Below are positions 717-63,857 of a stretch of 64,000 bases of DNA, piece by piece. The position numbers and the translations under genes were made by a program. The notes below the pieces were generated by a model that saw only the letters and a list, made by a program, of their open reading frames with translations, searched no databases and was not told where the DNA came from. How positions within the stretch are numbered: the stretch's first letter is position 1; the number at the start of each line of letters is the position of its first letter. The DNA comes from a virus. Its lineage: Duplodnaviria > Caudoviricetes. The stretch is from IMG/VR virus record IMGVR_UViG_3300037400_002732, positions 110,808 to 174,807 of that record; one strand, written 5' to 3'.

Positions 717-2282
717 ATGTCCGCACGTTTACTAATTAAAAAGTACACCGGAAAGGATGGCGACTTCGGTACGCCAGTTTCGTCTATTGGATTGAAGCGA
801 GTTGACACTTGCGTTCCTTCGGTTTACAGCTCGGCTGCCTTGGAAGGCACTGGGCATACGGTTCCAGCGGACGACGCTTCTGAAGCCAATGCTTATTGTA
901 TTTATCGTCCAGACAATCCAGAGTGCTACTCGTACTCGATGGAAAGCGTTTTCAAGATCCATCTTGTGAAAGCTCCAGATGTCCAGCTTAGCAACATTAG
1001 ACTCTATCCAGTCGGAGAAAGGCCCACTTCACCTACTGCCGCAAAACTTTACATAGGCAACTCTATTTCTTATAGCCGCCCAACAGACCAGAAATCTCAA
1101 ATTGCACTCAATGACATCTGGAACTATTCCAAGGAACATCCATTCTACTTGACAGTCGCCGGACTGTTCGGACAAGTGCCAGACCCGCGTCTGAGCAAGA
1201 CCGAATACAACGTAGACTATAAGGACTGTGGCTTTGGAAACTTGATTTATATTGACGGCGATCGTCAACCGACTCTAACGGTCGCAACTCGCACGAACGA
1301 TGATACTGTGGTGTACGAGTTCAAGAACCAGTCGTTCACCAAGGGAAAATACGAACACTCCTTTATTGAATTTGTTAAGGTTGACCCGACAAAACCGACG
1401 TTTGAAGGAACCGCGAATGTCCTTGGATGGCCGTATGTCTATAATCCGACCGATTCTGAAGGAAACCTTGATTACGACACGGTTTGCTTGGTAGTGAAAG
1501 ACAAGGCGCAAGGCATTGACTTGATTAAGGAATGTCCGGCTGGCCTCATTTACAAGCGTCCTACGGATGCTAAGGGTTATCACTTCGGAACTGGCGGCGC
1601 AATCCAGACGGTTTATCTCTACAACGGAAAGCCGGGTACTTATGGAGAGGCTAATCCAGCTTATGTTCCTACCGAATGGCATAAGACATTGATTAACGAA
1701 AGTACTGGCGCAGTCACTACCGAGCCAGCAGCTTCTCCGTTCATCGGAACTGATCCGAAGACTGGTAAGCCTCTGTTCCAGTTTGACGTTTGTGTGGAGA
1801 ATGACAACTTTGGCCACAGTGGATATGTCATGAATGGCGTACGCCGTCCTATGCTGACGTTCGACCTTAATGCGGTTTACGCATTCCGTAACCGTTCTGG
1901 CGCAGCGTTCCCATTGAGATTCATTGGCAATCCGTTCTCTCCTATAGCCAACTTCATCGACGACGTTGTTGTAGACGGCGTTACCGTCGTGGACGGTGCG
2001 ACCGACAACGAACTTATTTACGTCGATCCGGAGAAAGTATTCAAGGCTGGAAAGAAGATTAACGCATATCAGTGCGTGACGGCACCGGAATTGGGCAGCT
2101 TTGTCCATAATGCGCCGCTTTGCATGTGTGGAAACTACAACTTGTGCCGTGTAGACGGAGGCATTTACAACCCATTAAAGGCTGGCGAGACTGACTATGT
2201 GTACTTGCAGCTAGAGGTTAGTGGCCAATCAGATCCAGGTTACAGCGTACCGGATATCGAAATCGAGTACGACGAAAATTAG
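717..2282 (+). CDS. Putative virion structural protein
   Basis: Long ORF after late motif; ATG 717 (MSARLLIKK) preferred to TTG 684, which overlaps the promoter; beta-rich composition. Confidence 0.6.
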   Translation: MSARLLIKKYTGKDGDFGTPVSSIGLKRVDTCVPSVYSSAALEGTGHTVPADDASEANAYCIYRPDNPECYSYSMESVFKIHLVKAPDVQLSNIRLYPVGERPTSPTAAKLYIGNSISYSRPTDQKSQIALNDIWNYSKEHPFYLTVAGLFGQVPDPRLSKTEYNVDYKDCGFGNLIYIDGDRQPTLTVATRTNDDTVVYEFKNQSFTKGKYEHSFIEFVKVDPTKPTFEGTANVLGWPYVYNPTDSEGNLDYDTVCLVVKDKAQGIDLIKECPAGLIYKRPTDAKGYHFGTGGAIQTVYLYNGKPGTYGEANPAYVPTEWHKTLINESTGAVTTEPAASPFIGTDPKTGKPLFQFDVCVENDNFGHSGYVMNGVRRPMLTFDLNAVYAFRNRSGAAFPLRFIGNPFSPIANFIDDVVVDGVTVVDGATDNELIYVDPEKVFKAGKKINAYQCVTAPELGSFVHNAPLCMCGNYNLCRVDGGIYNPLKAGETDYVYLQLEVSGQSDPGYSVPDIEIEYDEN

Positions 2283-4290: not shown

Positions 4291-6459
4291 ATGAATAATG
4301 GCCACTTTGCAGGACGAATAAAGAAGTTTGTTGAGGATGCAGTCAGCAAAGCTAAAGGAACCGAGGGCGAATTATACAAGATAATGAACGCTCACGGCTT
4401 TTATGATGTTGCTGATGAAAACAACGGACTTACCGACTGGCAACGCGCAAGCGTACCCAGCTACAACCAGAATAGGATTTCTGAGTTGTGTAATGCCATT
4501 GCCGAAATGTTCGGTCACATGCTTGCCAATGACGAATACGGAATTCTTTATCCAAATGTTGACGATGTTGTCGGAAAGCTAGACTTGAATGCGACGAAGA
4601 CGGCATCCGAAATGAACGTGATTGGCGGAGCATTAGGAGCCCTAACGTTTGGTGCGTCCGAAACTGCACGACAGTCGATGGGTCAGCTTACCGCTATCCT
4701 CATGGGCGGTTTCGCGTTTGACCCAGACATTCTTCCGCCGATCGCACTGAATTTGCCGGGACTTCCACTTACTCTAGCTAATGCGTATAAGCCGGGTTCG
4801 TACCCAGCCGACTGGACGTTTCTCTACGATCACGAAACGGTAAAGTCGAAGAATTATTATGAGGCGGATGATGGCGGAATCGCTATCGGAGCGAATATCA
4901 AGCTCAATTTAGGCCCATCAAGGCAGCAGATTCTGAAGCTGGTGTTCTCCGTTCCGGATGTTGACGAGAACGGTATGCCAAAGGGTGACGCGGTTGGTGG
5001 ACTTTCGCCAGACCAGTTCAACAAGATGTTTACGCTGTCCGACAAGAAGTATAGCGAACTAACCGACGCTGACAAGGAATTTGAACTCGATTCAGACCAG
5101 ATGCAGCTTGCGTTCTTCCGTTATATTCAACTGACACTGTGGGGAGCCATTAAGAATCCGGACAACTGGGCCTACTTGCACTGGGGTTCGATTACGCACA
5201 ACTCGTGCCCATGCGCCGTGAAGACGGCAATTTGTAGCTTCATTCATACCAACGGTTTTGCCGTAGATCCGAAAATTTGTCCGGAAGCTGGGTTCATTTC
5301 ATACTGCATTTCTACTGGCATGTCATACTACACTGGCCGAACAAAGCCGACGCACATGTATGTGTTCGAAGGCATGTCCTATCTTGATGACAAGGGAAAT
5401 AAGGTTGTCGCCGACAAGACAATCGGCTGGTCTAGCAATAACCAAGGTGTTCCGGTCGATAAAAAGCTGGCCAATTTACACTTTACGTTGGCGGCAGACT
5501 TGCTGTCTCATTTGACCTATGACACGAATCCGAACAAGGTTGCTCTCCGTAAGCAGCGTGTCGATGAAGCGAACTTGATTTACTCGTTCGTTGGGCTTCC
5601 TACTATGAAGTTCGGCGACGCAGTCATTCCGCCGGAATTGTCGGCGAACGCGATGGAAAAACGTGGCTTCCTCGAATTGATGAAGGCTACGATCAAGGTT
5701 TACGACAACAAGAACTCTACGCTTCCGCTATCCGATGAAAACTTCAAGATTGTCAATCAAGCCGAAAAGGGAGCCAACCAGCTCTCGGAATTGACGGTAA
5801 GGACAATCAAGTATATTCTGTCCAAGGCTGGACTCCAAGGAATCGTGGTTACTTCCGTGTACCGTTCTCCGGAGGCGCAAGCCAAGGCTATGTTTAATAA
5901 CAGACAAAGTCACAACGGCGCGATTGCCGTTAACTATGCCGAAAAAGGCCGTTCTGTTGATGCTGAATATACGAAAGTGTCCGAAAGGGTAAATGGTGCT
6001 GGTAACGGATGCAGAGTTCCTATTAAGGATCCGGCTGCCCAAGCGCAAGCGATCAAGAACATGCAAGCTAAGTGCCAAGAATATTTGGAAAAGGGTACTC
6101 CGGTATCTAATCACGGTTATGACCAGAGCAAGGTGCAAGCTGTCGATATGGGCCCCAAGAGCTCAAAGGCGTTTTTCAAGTACACCGATGACCAGATGAG
6201 AAAGTTCAATACGGCTTGCTGGGATGCATACCAAGAAGGCTACTTGAAAATCTATTTGGGCCCAGTTGAATATGGCGGCCCGAAGGTCAAGGATCCGGCG
6301 TTCCATATAGAAGTGTGGCAAGACGACAACCATAAGCACCCAAGCGGATTCGGCTCTACGCCAGCCCCGCCTAGCATTGACTGCATGGTGCTTGACGAAA
6401 ATTTGAAGAACAAGAATACATGGGATCTGGTTTACGTTCATGACCAGACGATCTCGTAG
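4291..6459 (+). CDS. Two-domain peptidoglycan hydrolase: lysozyme/pesticin-like muramidase plus C-terminal M15-like Zn peptidase
   Basis: DWTFLYDHE...GGIAIGANIKL and RKQRVDEANL resemble T4-lysozyme/pesticin motifs; TSVYRSPEAQ, SNH, AVD and FHIEV match the M15 peptidase pattern. Confidence 0.6.
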   Translation: MNNGHFAGRIKKFVEDAVSKAKGTEGELYKIMNAHGFYDVADENNGLTDWQRASVPSYNQNRISELCNAIAEMFGHMLANDEYGILYPNVDDVVGKLDLNATKTASEMNVIGGALGALTFGASETARQSMGQLTAILMGGFAFDPDILPPIALNLPGLPLTLANAYKPGSYPADWTFLYDHETVKSKNYYEADDGGIAIGANIKLNLGPSRQQILKLVFSVPDVDENGMPKGDAVGGLSPDQFNKMFTLSDKKYSELTDADKEFELDSDQMQLAFFRYIQLTLWGAIKNPDNWAYLHWGSITHNSCPCAVKTAICSFIHTNGFAVDPKICPEAGFISYCISTGMSYYTGRTKPTHMYVFEGMSYLDDKGNKVVADKTIGWSSNNQGVPVDKKLANLHFTLAADLLSHLTYDTNPNKVALRKQRVDEANLIYSFVGLPTMKFGDAVIPPELSANAMEKRGFLELMKATIKVYDNKNSTLPLSDENFKIVNQAEKGANQLSELTVRTIKYILSKAGLQGIVVTSVYRSPEAQAKAMFNNRQSHNGAIAVNYAEKGRSVDAEYTKVSERVNGAGNGCRVPIKDPAAQAQAIKNMQAKCQEYLEKGTPVSNHGYDQSKVQAVDMGPKSSKAFFKYTDDQMRKFNTACWDAYQEGYLKIYLGPVEYGGPKVKDPAFHIEVWQDDNHKHPSGFGSTPAPPSIDCMVLDENLKNKNTWDLVYVHDQTIS

Positions 6460-62014: not shown

Positions 62015-62088
62015 GGGTCATTAGCTCAGTTGGAAGAGCGTCTGATTTGCACTCAGAAGGTCGTCGGTTCGAGCCCGACATCGATCCA
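62015..62088 (+). tRNA. tRNA-Ala(TGC) with bulged acceptor stem
   Basis: Cloverleaf; anticodon loop TTTGCAC; T loop TTCGAGC; G3:U70; A73. Confidence 0.9.
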
Positions 62089-62180
62089 GTAAATTGGCAA
62101 GCTCGTGAAGCTTGCTGGCAGTTTGAAAATTCGGATGATTATTTGTTTGCATCTCGTAAGAGATGTGAACGCAAACCAAA

Positions 62181-62248
62181 GGACATTAGCTCAGTAGGAA
62201 GAGCGCTTACACAAGTAAGAGGCCACGCAATCGAAATGCGTATGTCCA
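62181..62248 (+). ncRNA. Anticodon-less tRNA-like RNA
   Basis: GGACAT/ATGTCC acceptor, intact D arm, CTTAC-ACAA-GTAAG 4-nt loop, ACGCA-ATCGAAA-TGCGT T arm. Confidence 0.75.
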
Positions 62249-62254
62249 TTATAT

Positions 62255-62328
62255 GGGTCATTAGCTCAGTTGGAAGAGCGCTTGCATGGCATGCAAGAGG
62301 TCGTCGGTTCGAGCCCGACATCGATCCA
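62255..62328 (+). tRNA. tRNA-Ala(GGC) with bulged acceptor stem
   Basis: CTTGC-ATGGCAT-GCAAG; G3:U70. Confidence 0.9.
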
Positions 62329-62337
62329 CGAATTTAT

Positions 62338-62411
62338 GGGTCATTAGCTCAACTGGTAGAGCGTCTGCTCCGCAAGCAGAAGGTTATCGGTTCGAATCCG
62401 ATATCGATCCA
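62338..62411 (+). tRNA. tRNA-Ala(CGC) with bulged acceptor stem and C33
   Basis: TCTGC-TCCGCAA-GCAGA; G3:U70. Confidence 0.8.
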
Positions 62412-62661: not shown

Positions 62662-62734
62662 GCCGCTGTAGCTCAGTTGGTAGAGCGGTAGACTGAAGAT
62701 CTACGCGTCGGAGGTTCGATGCTTCCCGGCGGCA
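62662..62734 (+). tRNA. tRNA-Phe(GAA)
   Basis: GCCGCTG/CGGCGGC acceptor; GTAGA-CTGAAGA-TCTAC. Confidence 0.9.
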
Positions 62735-62747
62735 CTAACAAACTTAT

Positions 62748-62945
62748 GGGTACTCTGCCGTTGAAATGGGAGTAGGATAAAGTCAATAGAACGCGGAACG
62801 ATGACGGCCACCAACCGTTATATCTGAACGCTATTATGGAGACCTAACGAAATCTTAATTGGAGAGACGGGCGGGAGCTGGTAACTCTCGTTTCCTGGTT
62901 ATCTAAAACCGTGGAATAGCTCAGGTTCGAATCCTGGAGGACCCA
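62748..62945 (+). ncRNA. 198-nt tRNA-like RNA: 8/4-type fold, GGT anticodon loop, long variable arm, expanded D loop
   Basis: GGGTACTC/GAGGACCC acceptor, CAGG-TTCGAAT-CCTG T arm, CGGGAG-CTGGTAA-CTCTCG anticodon arm; same TAT leader and ACTA trailer as neighbouring tRNAs. Confidence 0.7.
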
Positions 62946-62983
62946 CTATGCAACACTTTATCATTAGTTACCGTAGTAGACTG

Positions 62984-62991
62984 TATAAACT
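62984..62991 (+). promoter_or_regulatory. Putative late promoter TATAAACT for the endonuclease gene
   Basis: Motif lies in the loop of the GTAGTAG/CTACTAT hairpin upstream of 63009. Confidence 0.6.
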
Positions 62992-63008
62992 ACTATAAAA
63001 AGGATAAT

Positions 63009-63857
63009 GTGCTCATGAAACAGAAAGTTCCCGATTCCGACATCATATTATATGCAACTAATTGCAAAAGCATGCGCGAGGGTGCAATGAAATGCGGATT
63101 AGATGCGTCGTCATTTTATCGACGTGCTAAAAAATTAGGTGTATATGATGGCAATCGCTGGAAGAACGAATGTATTGCTAAGGCTGCTAAGAAGGCCGAC
63201 GAATTAAACCAACCATTGGTATGTCCATATTGTGGTAAAGAATGTAAAAATAAGATGTCGTACGCTGGTCATACGCGATCGTGTCCTAATAACCCCAACC
63301 GCAATTATGTTAACCATTCTGTAGGACACAAAGCTTGGAATGCTGGTTTAACAAAAGAAACTGATGAACGTTTACGACTAAAGGGTGAATGCTTACATGA
63401 ACGGTATAAAAATAAAGAATTGTTGCCTCCGTGGTTGGGTAAAACACATACAGAGGAAACTAAACAAAAGTTATCTAAAGCGATGCAACTAGCTCATAAA
63501 GAAGGTCGAGCACATAATATTGGTGAAAGTAGGTGGAACAATGAACATAGTTGGCCAGAAATATGGATGATAAATGTATTAAAAAATGAATTTGGCTTTA
63601 TAGAAGGCATTAACTATAAAACCGAGTATTCGTTTCATAGATTCTCATTAGACTTTGCATTTGTTGATGAAAAAGTTTGTATTGAAGTTGATGGTAAACA
63701 GCATAAAACTGATAAAAAACAACAAGAGCGAGACGCCAATAAAGATCGTTTACTAATTGAAGAAGGTTGGCGTGAATTGCGAATACCGTGGGTGGAATGC
63801 TGTAATGATACACAAAAGTGGATTAATATAATTAAAGAGTTTTTAACGGGAGTATAA
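63009..63857 (+). CDS. Free-standing putative homing endonuclease (Zn finger, NUMOD3, DUF559/Vsr-like nuclease)
   Basis: CPYCGKEC...HTRSC; GKTHTEETKQKLS; FSLDFAF...IEVDGKQH...GWRELRIPW; visibly AT-richer than flanking genes; start may be ATG 63015. Confidence 0.8.
   Translation: MLMKQKVPDSDIILYATNCKSMREGAMKCGLDASSFYRRAKKLGVYDGNRWKNECIAKAAKKADELNQPLVCPYCGKECKNKMSYAGHTRSCPNNPNRNYVNHSVGHKAWNAGLTKETDERLRLKGECLHERYKNKELLPPWLGKTHTEETKQKLSKAMQLAHKEGRAHNIGESRWNNEHSWPEIWMINVLKNEFGFIEGINYKTEYSFHRFSLDFAFVDEKVCIEVDGKQHKTDKKQQERDANKDRLLIEEGWRELRIPWVECCNDTQKWINIIKEFLTGV

What the first reader, a model, noticed from the sequence alone, without database searches (positions are those of the whole stretch)
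62748..62945. 198-nt allo-tRNA-like RNA with a roughly 100-nt D-loop insert
Seen: an 8-bp acceptor GGGTACTC/GAGGACCC (one A.G mismatch), a 4-bp T stem with canonical TTCGAAT loop, a 6-bp anticodon stem CGGGAG/CTCTCG with canonical loop CT-GGT-AA (Thr anticodon) and a long variable arm TTCC-TGGTT/AACCG-T-GGAA. A D stem CCGTT (62758-62762)/GACGG (62866-62870) encloses about 100 nt that ends in a D-loop-like AATTGGAGA. The insert has second copies of GACGG and CCGTT, so alternative folds are possible. It has the same TAT leader and A-CTA trailer as its neighbours, suggesting the same processing. Established: 8/4 stems, a 6-bp anticodon stem and a long variable arm are features of tRNA-Sec-like allo-tRNAs, which can be charged with an amino acid that does not match the anticodon; bacterial tRNA-Thr normally has C2-G71 and a short variable arm, unlike this RNA. 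Inference: a missense-decoding tRNA, a tRNA with an unusual intron, or a tRNA-scaffolded ncRNA or decoy.
Basis: partly seen in the sequence, partly recalled or inferred. Interest (0 to 1): 0.8.

Follow-up and report, generated by a model that had tools for sequence, protein, structure and literature searches.

The report
Phage tRNA-shaped RNA with giant D-loop
A family of uncultured giant phages carries a conserved 190-200-base gene that has every part of a transfer RNA, including an intact threonine-type anticodon loop. Its D-loop holds an extra ~105-base folded domain whose tip is complementary to the RNA's own anticodon, so it is a real and unusual tRNA derivative whose job is still open.

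Summary
Window 62748-62945 (+) is a real, selected RNA gene. I found 12 distinct homologues (189-203 nt) in three related jumbo-phage records and about 20 metagenome contigs.

On an independent MAFFT alignment, 98% of cells pair and 23 of 47 pairs show double compensatory changes (slid controls 0-6). The covarying helices are:
- an 8-bp acceptor stem with an invariant A5.G mismatch;
- a long-range 5-bp D stem enclosing 103-107 nt;
- a 7-bp anticodon stem;
- a long bulged variable arm;
- a 4-bp T stem.

The loop CUGGUAA, TTCGAAT and A73 are invariant. ARAGORN and Rfam do not call it.

The insert is a single-copy irregular hairpin. Its base is nearly invariant and its distal stems covary. Its terminal loop always holds ACCA, the exact complement of U33-G34-G35-U36.

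My best reading (0.45) is that the long form is the working RNA: a tRNA-Thr(GGU)-type look-alike of allo-tRNA/tRNA-Sec proportions whose D-loop domain folds back on its own anticodon. Live rivals are an intron-bearing or insert-tolerant ACY decoder (the phages encode RtcB and have no ordinary GGU tRNA). A missense tRNA is unlikely because ACC is a common phage codon.

The scan has noted other oversized phage tRNA look-alikes, but not this family.

The parts
62748..62755 (+). Acceptor stem, 5' strand (GGGTACTC). Pair 5 is an invariant A.G mismatch. C8 pairs with G62937 in the 8/4 reading.
   Evidence: pairs 4 and 7 covary (UA/AU/UG and UA/GC). Two homologues have tandem G4.A / A5.G.
62756..62757 (+). 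2-nt linker TG (invariant).
62758..62762 (+). D stem, 5' strand (CCGTT). It pairs over about 100 nt with 62866-62870.
   Evidence: 3 of 5 pairs show double changes (CG/UA, CG/UA, AU/UG) and 100% of cells pair.
62763..62784 (+). Basal 5' part of the D-loop domain (GAAATGGGAGTAGGATAAAGTC), nearly invariant.
   Evidence: 83-91% identity between lineages. Invariant runs are GAAATG, AGTAGGA and AAAGTC.
62785..62838 (+). Distal, fast-evolving part of the domain: stems 62793-62796/62828-62831, 62800-62801/62823-62824 and 62804-62807/62815-62818.
   Evidence: 8 of these 10 pairs have double changes, while sequence identity between lineages is only 38-63%.
62808..62814 (+). Terminal loop of the domain (CCACCAA). 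ACCA at 62810-62813 is invariant and complementary to U33-G34-G35-U36 of the anticodon loop.
   Evidence: ACCA is the longest invariant run in the variable part. It is one of only two invariant unpaired 4-mer pairs that are complementary between regions.
62839..62865 (+). Basal 3' part of the domain (GAGACCTAACGAAATCTTAATTGGAGA). The last 9 nt look like the 3' half of a D loop (GG = G18/G19, A = A21).
   Evidence: 93% identity between lineages. Invariant runs are GACCTAACGAA, CTTAA and TGGAGA.
62866..62870 (+). D stem, 3' strand (GACGG).
62871..62891 (+). Anticodon arm: 7-bp stem GCGGGAG/CTCTCGT and loop CTGGTAA (anticodon GGT at 62880-62882).
   Evidence: 5 of 7 pairs have double changes. The loop and its closing G-C pair are invariant in all 12 sequences.
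62892..62916 (+). Long variable arm: 4 bp, a U/GU internal bulge, 5 bp, and a 6-nt loop.
   Evidence: 4 pairs have double changes. The L161 lineage has lost the distal 14 nt but keeps the basal 4 bp.
62917..62936 (+). Linker TAGCT, then the T arm: CAGG / TTCGAAT / CCTG.
   Evidence: one T-stem pair covaries (UA/AU). The loop is invariant.
62937..62945 (+). Acceptor stem, 3' strand (GAGGACCC), and discriminator A. No CCA is encoded; the trailer is CTA.

Best explanation
This is a genuine phage RNA gene under purifying selection. It is a tRNA derivative with tRNA-Sec/allo-tRNA-like proportions: a 12-bp acceptor/T branch, a 5-bp D stem stacked on a 7-bp anticodon stem, and a long bulged variable arm. 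It carries a tRNA-Thr(GGU)-type anticodon loop, C32-U33-GGU-A37-A38. Its D loop has been expanded by a single-copy, structured 103-107-nt domain.

Shown:
- the architecture and its covariation;
- the invariance of the anticodon loop, T loop and A73;
- the near-invariant base of the domain and its covarying distal stems;
- the invariant ACCA in the domain's terminal loop;
- co-linearity and shared flanks with ordinary tRNAs.

Inferred:
- It is cut out of the array transcript by RNase P and 3' trimming and receives CCA, like its neighbours.
- The long form is the mature, working species. No known splicing signal is present, and the distal part of the insert is itself under structural selection.
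- The irregular hairpin runs back along the D/anticodon stack, so that its tip (ACC+A, a 'codon plus purine') pairs with U33-G34-G35-U36.

This gives a self-masked tRNA look-alike. It could be a gated or protected tRNA-Thr-like molecule, or a decoy for proteins that read the tRNA-Thr(GGU) anticodon arm. It would not be a routine elongator tRNA.
For: Real gene and architecture:
- There are 12 distinct homologues.
- 98.2% of cells pair and 23 of 47 pairs have double changes, against 0-6 in slid controls.
- RNAalifold recovers the same fold from 3 and from 12 sequences.

Long-range D stem: 3 of 5 pairs are compensatory.

A tRNA-like body remains once the insert is removed in silico: ARAGORN calls tRNA-Thr(GGT) on the natural short-V-arm variant.

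Flanks are shared with neighbouring tRNAs.

The insert is not a mobile repeat: there is one copy per genome. It matches no Rfam intron or ribozyme family.

Selection acts on the distal insert. Its stems covary while sequence identity is only 38-63%, yet ACCA is invariant. Only two invariant unpaired 4-mer pairs are complementary between regions: ACCA/UGGU (anticodon loop) and CGAA/UUCG (T loop).

In two of three lineages the loop is 7 nt with ACC at positions 3-5, the geometry of an anticodon loop. By established knowledge, complementary anticodon loops form stable kissing complexes.

The family is fixed with the insert. No insert-less allele appeared in pattern scans that did not require the insert or in CM searches of 26 related records.
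Against: - No expression, end-mapping or aminoacylation data could be obtained.
- The ACCA/UGGU pairing cannot be tested by covariation, because both sides are invariant. By my rough count, the chance that a conserved loop 4-mer complements the anticodon region is about 3-6%.
- The anticodon loop has every feature of a working ANN decoder (U33, U36-A37-A38). In addition, the carrier phages lack an ordinary tRNA-Thr(GGU) while using ACC for 20% of Thr codons. Both facts fit a decoding role.
- The phages encode RtcB, so protein-assisted splicing is not excluded.
- The consensus fold is 9-16 kcal/mol less stable than the computed MFE of each sequence, and the pairing of the invariant basal part of the insert is unresolved.
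Confidence: 0.45

Rival explanations
1. Intron-bearing tRNA. The 103-107-nt D-loop insert is excised by an unknown endonuclease and the halves are joined by the phage RtcB ligase. This would give a ~90-95-nt class-II-shaped tRNA(GGU) that reads ACC/ACU, most likely as Thr. The anticodon-complementary ACCA would then act like the anticodon-intron helix of eukaryotic pre-tRNAs.
For: - RtcB genes are present in G000, G017 and G018, the carriers.
- AAATGG(n)AG at the 5' edge repeats AAATGGAGA at the 3' edge, so precise removal would leave a normal 10-nt D loop.
- ARAGORN accepts the insert-deleted short-V variant as tRNA-Thr(GGT).
- The carriers have no ordinary GGU tRNA although ACC is 20% of Thr codons.
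- 'Enigmatic introns' have been reported in tRNAs of Lak megaphages (bioRxiv 10.1101/356790).
Against: - RtcB is also present in the complete relative G013, which lacks this RNA, so there is no specific link.
- No group I, group II or ribozyme family matches, and about 105 nt is too small for a self-splicing group I intron (established knowledge).
- By inspection I see no bulge-helix-bulge motif at the junctions.
- The 5' repeat is AAATGC in the L009 lineage.
- Strong structural selection on the distal hairpin is not expected of a protein-spliced intron.
- No insert-less allele was found.
Confidence: 0.25
2. Working elongator tRNA that keeps the insert. The D-loop domain projects from the outer corner of the L shape and is tolerated by EF-Tu and the ribosome. 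The RNA supplies ACY decoding, charged with Thr by host ThrRS through G35-U36.
For: - The anticodon loop CUGGUAA is invariant and has the determinants for t6A37 (established knowledge).
- It fills the missing GGU slot beside ordinary Thr(AGU) and Thr(CGU).
- The same arrays hold other decorated tRNAs, such as Asn(GTT) of 90 nt and Arg(TCT) of 89 nt with long variable arms. This phage group therefore tolerates embellished tRNAs.
Against: - The acceptor has G2-C71, whereas the phage's own Thr tRNAs and bacterial tRNA-Thr have C2-G71 (established identity rules).
- The tRNA elbow is contacted by the ribosome in the A/T, P and E states (established knowledge). A ~35-kDa domain there is likely to clash.
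- The phages encode no class IIa or Ia synthetase that could be dedicated to it.
Confidence: 0.15
3. Missense allo-tRNA. The long variable arm and A73 make it a substrate for LeuRS, TyrRS or SerRS, so ACC/ACU codons are partly read as another amino acid.
For: - It has allo-tRNA-like 8/4, a long anticodon stem and a long V arm. Natural allo-tRNAs act as missense or nonsense suppressors in E. coli (PMC5389517).
- A73 plus a long V arm is the Leu/Tyr pattern (established knowledge).
Against: - ACC and ACT together are 58% of Thr codons and about 4% of all codons in 25 large phage genes, including structural genes. Missense reading there would damage the phage's own proteins.
- Most allo-tRNAs have G73/U73, whereas this RNA has A73.
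- A bulge in the V-arm stem blocked SerRS charging of engineered allo-tRNAs (PMC7590224 abstract), and this V arm has a conserved bulge.
Confidence: 0.07
4. Y-RNA-type partner of a phage Ro60 (TROVE) protein. The D-loop domain would be the protein-docking arm on a tRNA-shaped body, as in YrlA.
For: - A TROVE gene lies about 6.6 kb downstream of the RNA in G017.
- The scan has reported tRNA bodies with Ro60-docking arms in other phages.
Against: - G018, 93% complete and carrying an identical copy of the RNA, has no TROVE gene. G013 has TROVE but not the RNA.
- The TROVE gene of G017 already has YrlA-like RNAs directly upstream.
- The YrlA and Y_RNA models do not match this RNA even at E<=10.
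Confidence: 0.04
5. Decaying tRNA pseudogene or chance resemblance.
For: - It is not called by ARAGORN or Rfam.
- The single-sequence fold has z = -0.87.
Against: Twelve distinct homologues have 23 compensated pairs, invariant functional loops and no disabling changes.
Confidence: 0.02

Closest known systems
allo-tRNAs and (8/4) tRNAs of bacteria and phages (Mukai et al. 2017, PMC5389517)
   Same: It has a 12-bp acceptor branch readable as 8/4, a longer anticodon stem, a long D stem and a long variable arm. It occurs in a phage tRNA polycistron. The anticodon is not matched to the class-II body.
   Different: The discriminator is A73, where most allo-tRNAs have G73/U73. The D arm carries a 103-107-nt structured domain plus a GG-containing D-loop half, where allo-tRNAs have a tetraloop. 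The anticodon stem is 7 bp. The 8/4 reading is not distinguishable from 7/5 with a U.G pair.
'Enigmatic intron'-containing tRNAs of Lak megaphages (Devoto et al., bioRxiv 10.1101/356790)
   Same: These are oversized tRNA genes in huge-phage tRNA arrays, with highly conserved inserts of unknown mechanism.
   Different: The Lak inserts were placed by eukaryote-mode tRNAscan, which models anticodon-loop introns. Here the anticodon arm is intact and the insert is in the D loop. It has covariation-supported structure and an anticodon-complementary tip. No sequence relationship was tested.
Phage T4 RNA C and RNA D (species 1 and 2 RNAs; PMC3014915)
   Same: These are stable small RNAs encoded within, and presumably processed with, a T4-like phage's tRNA cluster. 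Their role is unknown. The present phage is a T4-like myovirus by its portal, baseplate-wedge and sheath-stabiliser genes.
   Different: There is no detectable sequence similarity to any of 50,697 phage records, which include T4-like phages. This RNA keeps a complete anticodon arm.
T-box riboswitch Stem I (specifier loop)
   Same: This is a resemblance in mechanism only. Stem I is an irregular hairpin of about 100 nt that spans elbow to anticodon and presents a codon plus a 3' purine to a tRNA anticodon.
   Different: Here the hairpin is part of the tRNA itself (cis), and the codon-like ACCA sits in a terminal loop. There is no antiterminator or mRNA context and no Rfam T-box match. The pairing is inferred, not shown.
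YrlA / bacterial and phage Y RNAs (Rfam RF02553)
   Same: It is a tRNA-like module joined to an extra structured arm, found in phages with RtcB and sometimes Ro60.
   Different: The model does not match. Presence of a Ro60 gene does not track the RNA. YrlA lacks a true anticodon arm.

Membership tests
Canonical tRNA (Rfam RF00005 / ARAGORN) | Detected by the tRNA covariance model or by ARAGORN as a cloverleaf with a 7-11-nt D loop. | tested here: not met
   There is no call at this locus at gathering score or at E<=10, nor in L002, L003 or L009. After in-silico removal of the insert, ARAGORN calls tRNA-Thr(GGT) only on the natural short-V-arm variant L161.
Canonical tRNA (Rfam RF00005 / ARAGORN) | Acceptor, D, anticodon and T helices maintained by compensatory change, with a 7-nt anticodon loop with U33 and a T loop TTCRANY. 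| tested here: met
allo-tRNA (PMC5389517) | 12-bp acceptor branch composed as 8/4 or 9/3. | tested here: inconclusive
   The branch is 12 bp. The C8-G pair (8/4) and the alternative U.G pair (7/5) are both invariant, so covariation cannot decide. RNAalifold prefers 8/4.
allo-tRNA (PMC5389517) | Long variable arm and lengthened anticodon stem. | tested here: met
   The V arm is 25-27 nt (12 nt in L161). The anticodon stem is 7 bp with 5 covarying pairs.
allo-tRNA (PMC5389517) | tRNA-Sec-like D arm: a long stem closed by a tetraloop. | tested here: not met
   The stem is 5 bp, but it encloses 103-107 nt.
allo-tRNA (PMC5389517) | Discriminator G73 or U73 (most members; SerRS-type identity). | tested here: not met
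   A73 is invariant in 12 sequences.
tRNA-Sec (RF01852) | UCA anticodon, 13-bp acceptor branch, and a match to the model. | tested here: not met
   The anticodon is GGU, the branch is 12 bp, and the model does not hit at E<=10.
tmRNA | tRNA-like ends without an anticodon arm, G3.U70, an internal tag ORF and pseudoknots. | tested here: not met
   ARAGORN finds no tmRNA. The only hit, cyano_tmRNA at 9.3 bits against a gathering score of 70, overlaps the neighbouring tRNA-Phe. The RNA has G3-C70 and a full anticodon arm.
Group I / group II intron in a tRNA gene | Match to an intron covariance model, size of at least about 200 nt, and usual location in the anticodon loop. | tested here: not met
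   There is no Rfam match. The insert is 103-107 nt and lies in the D loop.
Archaeal/eukaryal protein-spliced tRNA intron | Bulge-helix-bulge motif at the exon-intron junctions, and a splicing endonuclease. | tested here: inconclusive
   I found no BHB by inspecting the invariant junction sequences, but I applied no formal BHB model. The ligase RtcB is present. I did not search for an endonuclease.
YrlA-type Y RNA | Match to RF02553 and co-occurrence with a Ro60/TROVE gene. | tested here: not met
   there is no model match, and G018 has the RNA but no TROVE gene. The YrlA-like hits lie elsewhere (L179).

The most novel reading that the evidence does not exclude
The D-loop domain is a built-in specifier. 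It is an irregular hairpin of about 105 nt that runs from the elbow back to the anticodon and presents ACC+A to the RNA's own U33-GGU. The result would be a tRNA that carries its own codon, like a cis version of T-box Stem I. Such a self-gated tRNA could be shielded from anticodon nucleases or from the ribosome until the mask is displaced. It could also pair in trans with host tRNA-Thr(GGU).
Probability: 0.2. Interest if true: 0.85.

Novelty: new variant of a known kind. Interest (0 to 1): 0.66.

Why it matters
Oversized 'tRNAs' in huge phages have been reported as curiosities, for example as enigmatic introns, without structural analysis. This one is unusually informative. It keeps a complete, invariant decoding-type anticodon arm on an allo-tRNA/tRNA-Sec-like body. 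Its extra domain sits in the D loop, a site where I know of no bacterial or phage tRNA insertion. The domain's tip is complementary to the anticodon.

If the long form is mature, it would be a natural example of a tRNA with a large functional expansion domain. That bears on tRNA engineering, on phage counter-measures against tRNA-targeting defences, and on how far the tRNA fold can be decorated. If the insert is spliced, it would point to a non-group-I tRNA splicing pathway in a bacteriophage. Either outcome can be tested with a transcript of about 200 nt.

Tried and rejected
- Synteny: a search with the upstream 333-aa ORF found no relatives.
- DNA patterns: AGTAGGANAAAGTCAA returned almost only chance hits. 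L004 from the first insert pattern is a chance match inside a coding region. The two bacterial-genome hits (Aurantimonas, Fulvimarina) are chance, with no CM match.
- Cultured phages: blastn against 50,697 phage records found only tRNA-Phe similarity and nothing over the RNA itself.
- Weak CM hit: the hit to the insert part elsewhere in G000 lies in coding sequence and is chance.
- Mobile element: rejected, because the insert is single-copy per genome and has no terminal inverted repeats.
- Origin: I looked for an origin from a particular phage tRNA. No tRNA in the array is clearly closest. The tRNA-Tyr of the L161 array scores best with the CM, but only 23 bits.
- Dedicated synthetase: no PF00587 or PF00133 genes in the carriers.
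- Rfam: no tmRNA, ribozyme, intron, T-box or Y-RNA match.

Full report
**Context.** The window is the last 64 kb of a 174.8-kb IMG/VR virus record that CheckV rates 46% complete. It is a T4-like myovirus, judged by its portal, baseplate-wedge and tail-sheath-stabiliser genes. It belongs to a group of uncultured jumbo phages of 310-420 kb. A tRNA array starts at 62015. ARAGORN and Rfam call eight and six ordinary tRNAs there, and neither calls anything at 62748-62945. A permissive Rfam scan of 62700-63000 gives only two noise hits.

**Observation.** The RNA follows tRNA-Phe after 12 nt. Its TAT leader is shared with six of the eight neighbouring tRNAs and its A|CTA trailer with five, and like them it encodes no CCA. 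In this phage only, a NUMOD3/DUF559 homing-endonuclease-like ORF (63009-63857) separates it from tRNA-Lys(CTT). In relatives, tRNA-Lys follows directly.

**Homologues.**
- DNA pattern scans found an identical copy in a 355-kb phage record (L002). They found diverged copies in a 135-kb record (L003) and a 348-kb record (L009).
- One metagenome scan with an insert motif gave 24 contigs. A covariance model built from three sequences (R1) matched a full-length copy in 21 of them at 189-234 bits; L159, L165 and L167 gave no match.
- Together these make 12 distinct sequences of 189-203 nt in three lineages.
- R1 finds the RNA in only 4 of 26 related phage records. All four have portal proteins at least 81% identical to the window's. 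It is absent from the records with 59-67% portal identity, which include two complete 420-kb genomes.
- No cultured-phage record has blastn similarity over the RNA. Two bacterial-genome pattern hits are chance.

**Structure.** RNAalifold gives the same fold from 3 and from 12 sequences. On the MAFFT alignment A3, which was not fitted to any model, 98.2% of cells form standard pairs and 23 of 47 pairs have changes on both sides. Slid controls give 35-47% pairing and 0-6 such pairs, and no shuffle of 500 reaches the observed covariation. The supported helices are:
- an acceptor stem of 8 bp with an invariant A5.G mismatch, which becomes tandem G.A/A.G in two sequences;
- a long-range D stem of 5 bp (3 covarying pairs);
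- an anticodon stem of 7 bp (5 covarying pairs);
- a variable arm of 4+5 bp with a conserved U/GU bulge (4 covarying pairs);
- a T stem of 4 bp (1 covarying pair).

The C8-G pair (8/4 reading) and the alternative U.G pair (7/5 reading) are both invariant, so I cannot choose between them. The D stem plus anticodon stem gives 12 stacked pairs, as in tRNA-Sec and allo-tRNAs and unlike the 10 layers of ordinary tRNAs. The last comparison rests on established knowledge and PMC5389517.

The loop CUGGUAA, its closing pair, TTCGAAT and A73 are invariant. The loop has U33 and U36-A37-A38, the pattern of ANN-reading tRNAs that receive t6A37 (established knowledge).

**The insert.**
- It is single-copy in each genome, and no Rfam intron, ribozyme or Y-RNA model matches it.
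- Its two basal segments (62763-62784 and 62839-62865) are 83-93% identical between lineages, more conserved than the tRNA stems. Their pairing is unresolved because nothing there varies.
- The last nine bases, AAUUGGAGA, look like the 3' half of a D loop, with GG as G18/G19.
- The distal 55 nt are only 38-63% identical, yet they keep three short stems through compensatory changes: 8 of the 10 pairs have double changes.
- The terminal loop is CCACCAA, AUACCAA or UCUAACCAG. ACCA is the longest invariant run in this variable part.
- A script comparing all invariant unpaired 4-mers found only two complementary pairs between regions: ACCA with UGGU of the anticodon loop (U33-G34-G35-U36), and CGAA with UUCG of the T loop.
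Other lineages have GUGA/UCAC.

**Decoding context.**
- Carrier phages G017 and G018 (91% and 93% complete) have 35-37 ordinary tRNAs, including Thr(AGU) and Thr(CGU), but no ordinary Thr(GGU). The complete non-carrier G013 has Thr(CGU) and Thr(UGU).
- In 25 large ORFs of the window, ACC is 216 of 15,797 codons (20% of Thr) and ACT is 38% of Thr. A tRNA that misread ACY would damage the phage's own proteins. Any decoding role should therefore be as Thr.
- The acceptor (G1-C72, G2-C71, G3-C70) differs from the phage's own Thr tRNAs, which begin GCC.
- No class IIa or Ia synthetase gene is present, so only a host enzyme could charge the RNA.
- With the insert removed in silico, ARAGORN calls tRNA-Thr(GGT) on the natural short-V-arm variant. 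In the other variants the 25-27-nt V arm probably exceeds what ARAGORN accepts; that limit was not tested.

**Other genes.** RtcB is encoded by G000 (outside the window), G017 and G018, and also by the non-carrier G013. A Ro60/TROVE gene is present in G017 and G013 but not in G018. In G017 it has sub-threshold YrlA-like RNAs directly upstream. Neither gene tracks this RNA.

**Interpretation.** The pseudogene and chance readings are excluded. The RNA is a tRNA derivative. It most resembles allo-tRNAs in proportions, but it fails two of their features: the D-arm tetraloop and G/U73. I therefore do not file it as a member.

The main open question is whether the insert stays in the mature RNA.
- For retention: there is no known splicing signal, the insert is too small to self-splice as a group I intron, its distal hairpin is under structural selection, no insert-less allele was found, and neither RtcB nor Ro60 tracks it.
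- For removal or decoding: the anticodon loop is a perfect decoder type, the GGU slot is otherwise unfilled, there is an AAATGG direct repeat at the insert edges, RtcB is present, and Lak megaphage tRNAs have reported 'introns' (10.1101/356790).

I rank the readings as follows:
- unspliced, self-masked tRNA look-alike: 0.45;
- spliced decoder: 0.25;
- unspliced decoder: 0.15;
- missense allo-tRNA: 0.07;
- Ro60 partner: 0.04;
- pseudogene: 0.02.

The fold-back of ACCA onto the anticodon is an inference. It rests on invariance, complementarity and a plausible length: about 37 nt per strand against a D/anticodon stack of 12 bp. It is not supported by covariation.

**Novelty.** The literature I could search describes allo-tRNAs, (8/4) phage tRNAs, Lak 'intron' tRNAs and T4 RNA C/D. 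I found no description of a D-loop domain of this kind. Earlier notes of this scan list several other oversized phage tRNA look-alikes on other genomes. None shares sequence with this family, and most lack a working anticodon loop. The general phenomenon is therefore known, and this is a new variant of it.

Noticed in passing
window 62181-62248 (+); also L002 about 2079-2149 (-) and L003 about 5931-6000 (-): This is a tRNA-shaped gene with a sealed anticodon arm and T loop ATCGAAA. It is conserved in relatives with a compensated stem: CTTAC/GTAAG in the window, TTCAC/GTGAA in L002 and L003. It is probably a non-decoding tRNA mimic. Rfam gives a weak tmRNA-clan hit further upstream in L003 (6100-6174 (-), 20 bits).
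   Followed up: partly
L002 1842-1999 (-); L003 5458-5841 (-); L142 1462-1581 (+): This is a second kind of long tRNA-like RNA placed after the Ala tRNAs. It has a G3.U70-type acceptor (GGGCUGC.../...GGUCCA) and a T arm, with 120-384 nt in total of unrelated internal sequence of very different length. It is absent from the window, where Ala(GGC) and Ala(CGC) are only 8 nt apart. ARAGORN does not call it as tmRNA.
   Followed up: no
L177 14155-14244 (-) and 8879-8967 (-) (record G018): tRNA-Asn(GTT) of 90 nt and tRNA-Arg(TCT) of 89 nt carry long variable arms, which ordinary Asn and Arg tRNAs never have. This phage group seems to decorate several tRNAs.
   Followed up: no
L179 875-975 and 1055-1131 (+), upstream of a TROVE gene at G017:171529-172125: A Ro60-like (TROVE) gene in a related phage is preceded by several tRNA-like modules. 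Two of them give sub-threshold YrlA matches (E 1e-4 and 5e-5). This looks like a phage Ro60/Y-RNA system at the end of the tRNA array.
   Followed up: partly
G000:C1:25451-26488 (-) (outside the window); also G017, G018, G013: These jumbo phages encode an RtcB-type RNA ligase, consistent with tRNA repair or splicing capacity.
   Followed up: partly
window 63009-63857 (+): This ORF combines a NUMOD3 motif with a DUF559/Vsr-like endonuclease domain. It is inserted between this RNA and tRNA-Lys(CTT) only in the window's phage. L002, L003 and L009 lack it, so it looks like a mobile homing-endonuclease gene.
   Followed up: partly
L009 7291-7364 (+); L177 12320-12394 (-): The phages carry a tRNA-Thr with an AGU anticodon (A34), which is unusual for bacteria-type systems.
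   Followed up: no
window 62015-62411 (+): The three tRNA-Ala genes (TGC, GGC, CGC) share an acceptor stem whose 3' strand is one base longer than the 5' strand (GGGTCAT against ATCGATCC), while keeping G3.U70.
   Followed up: no
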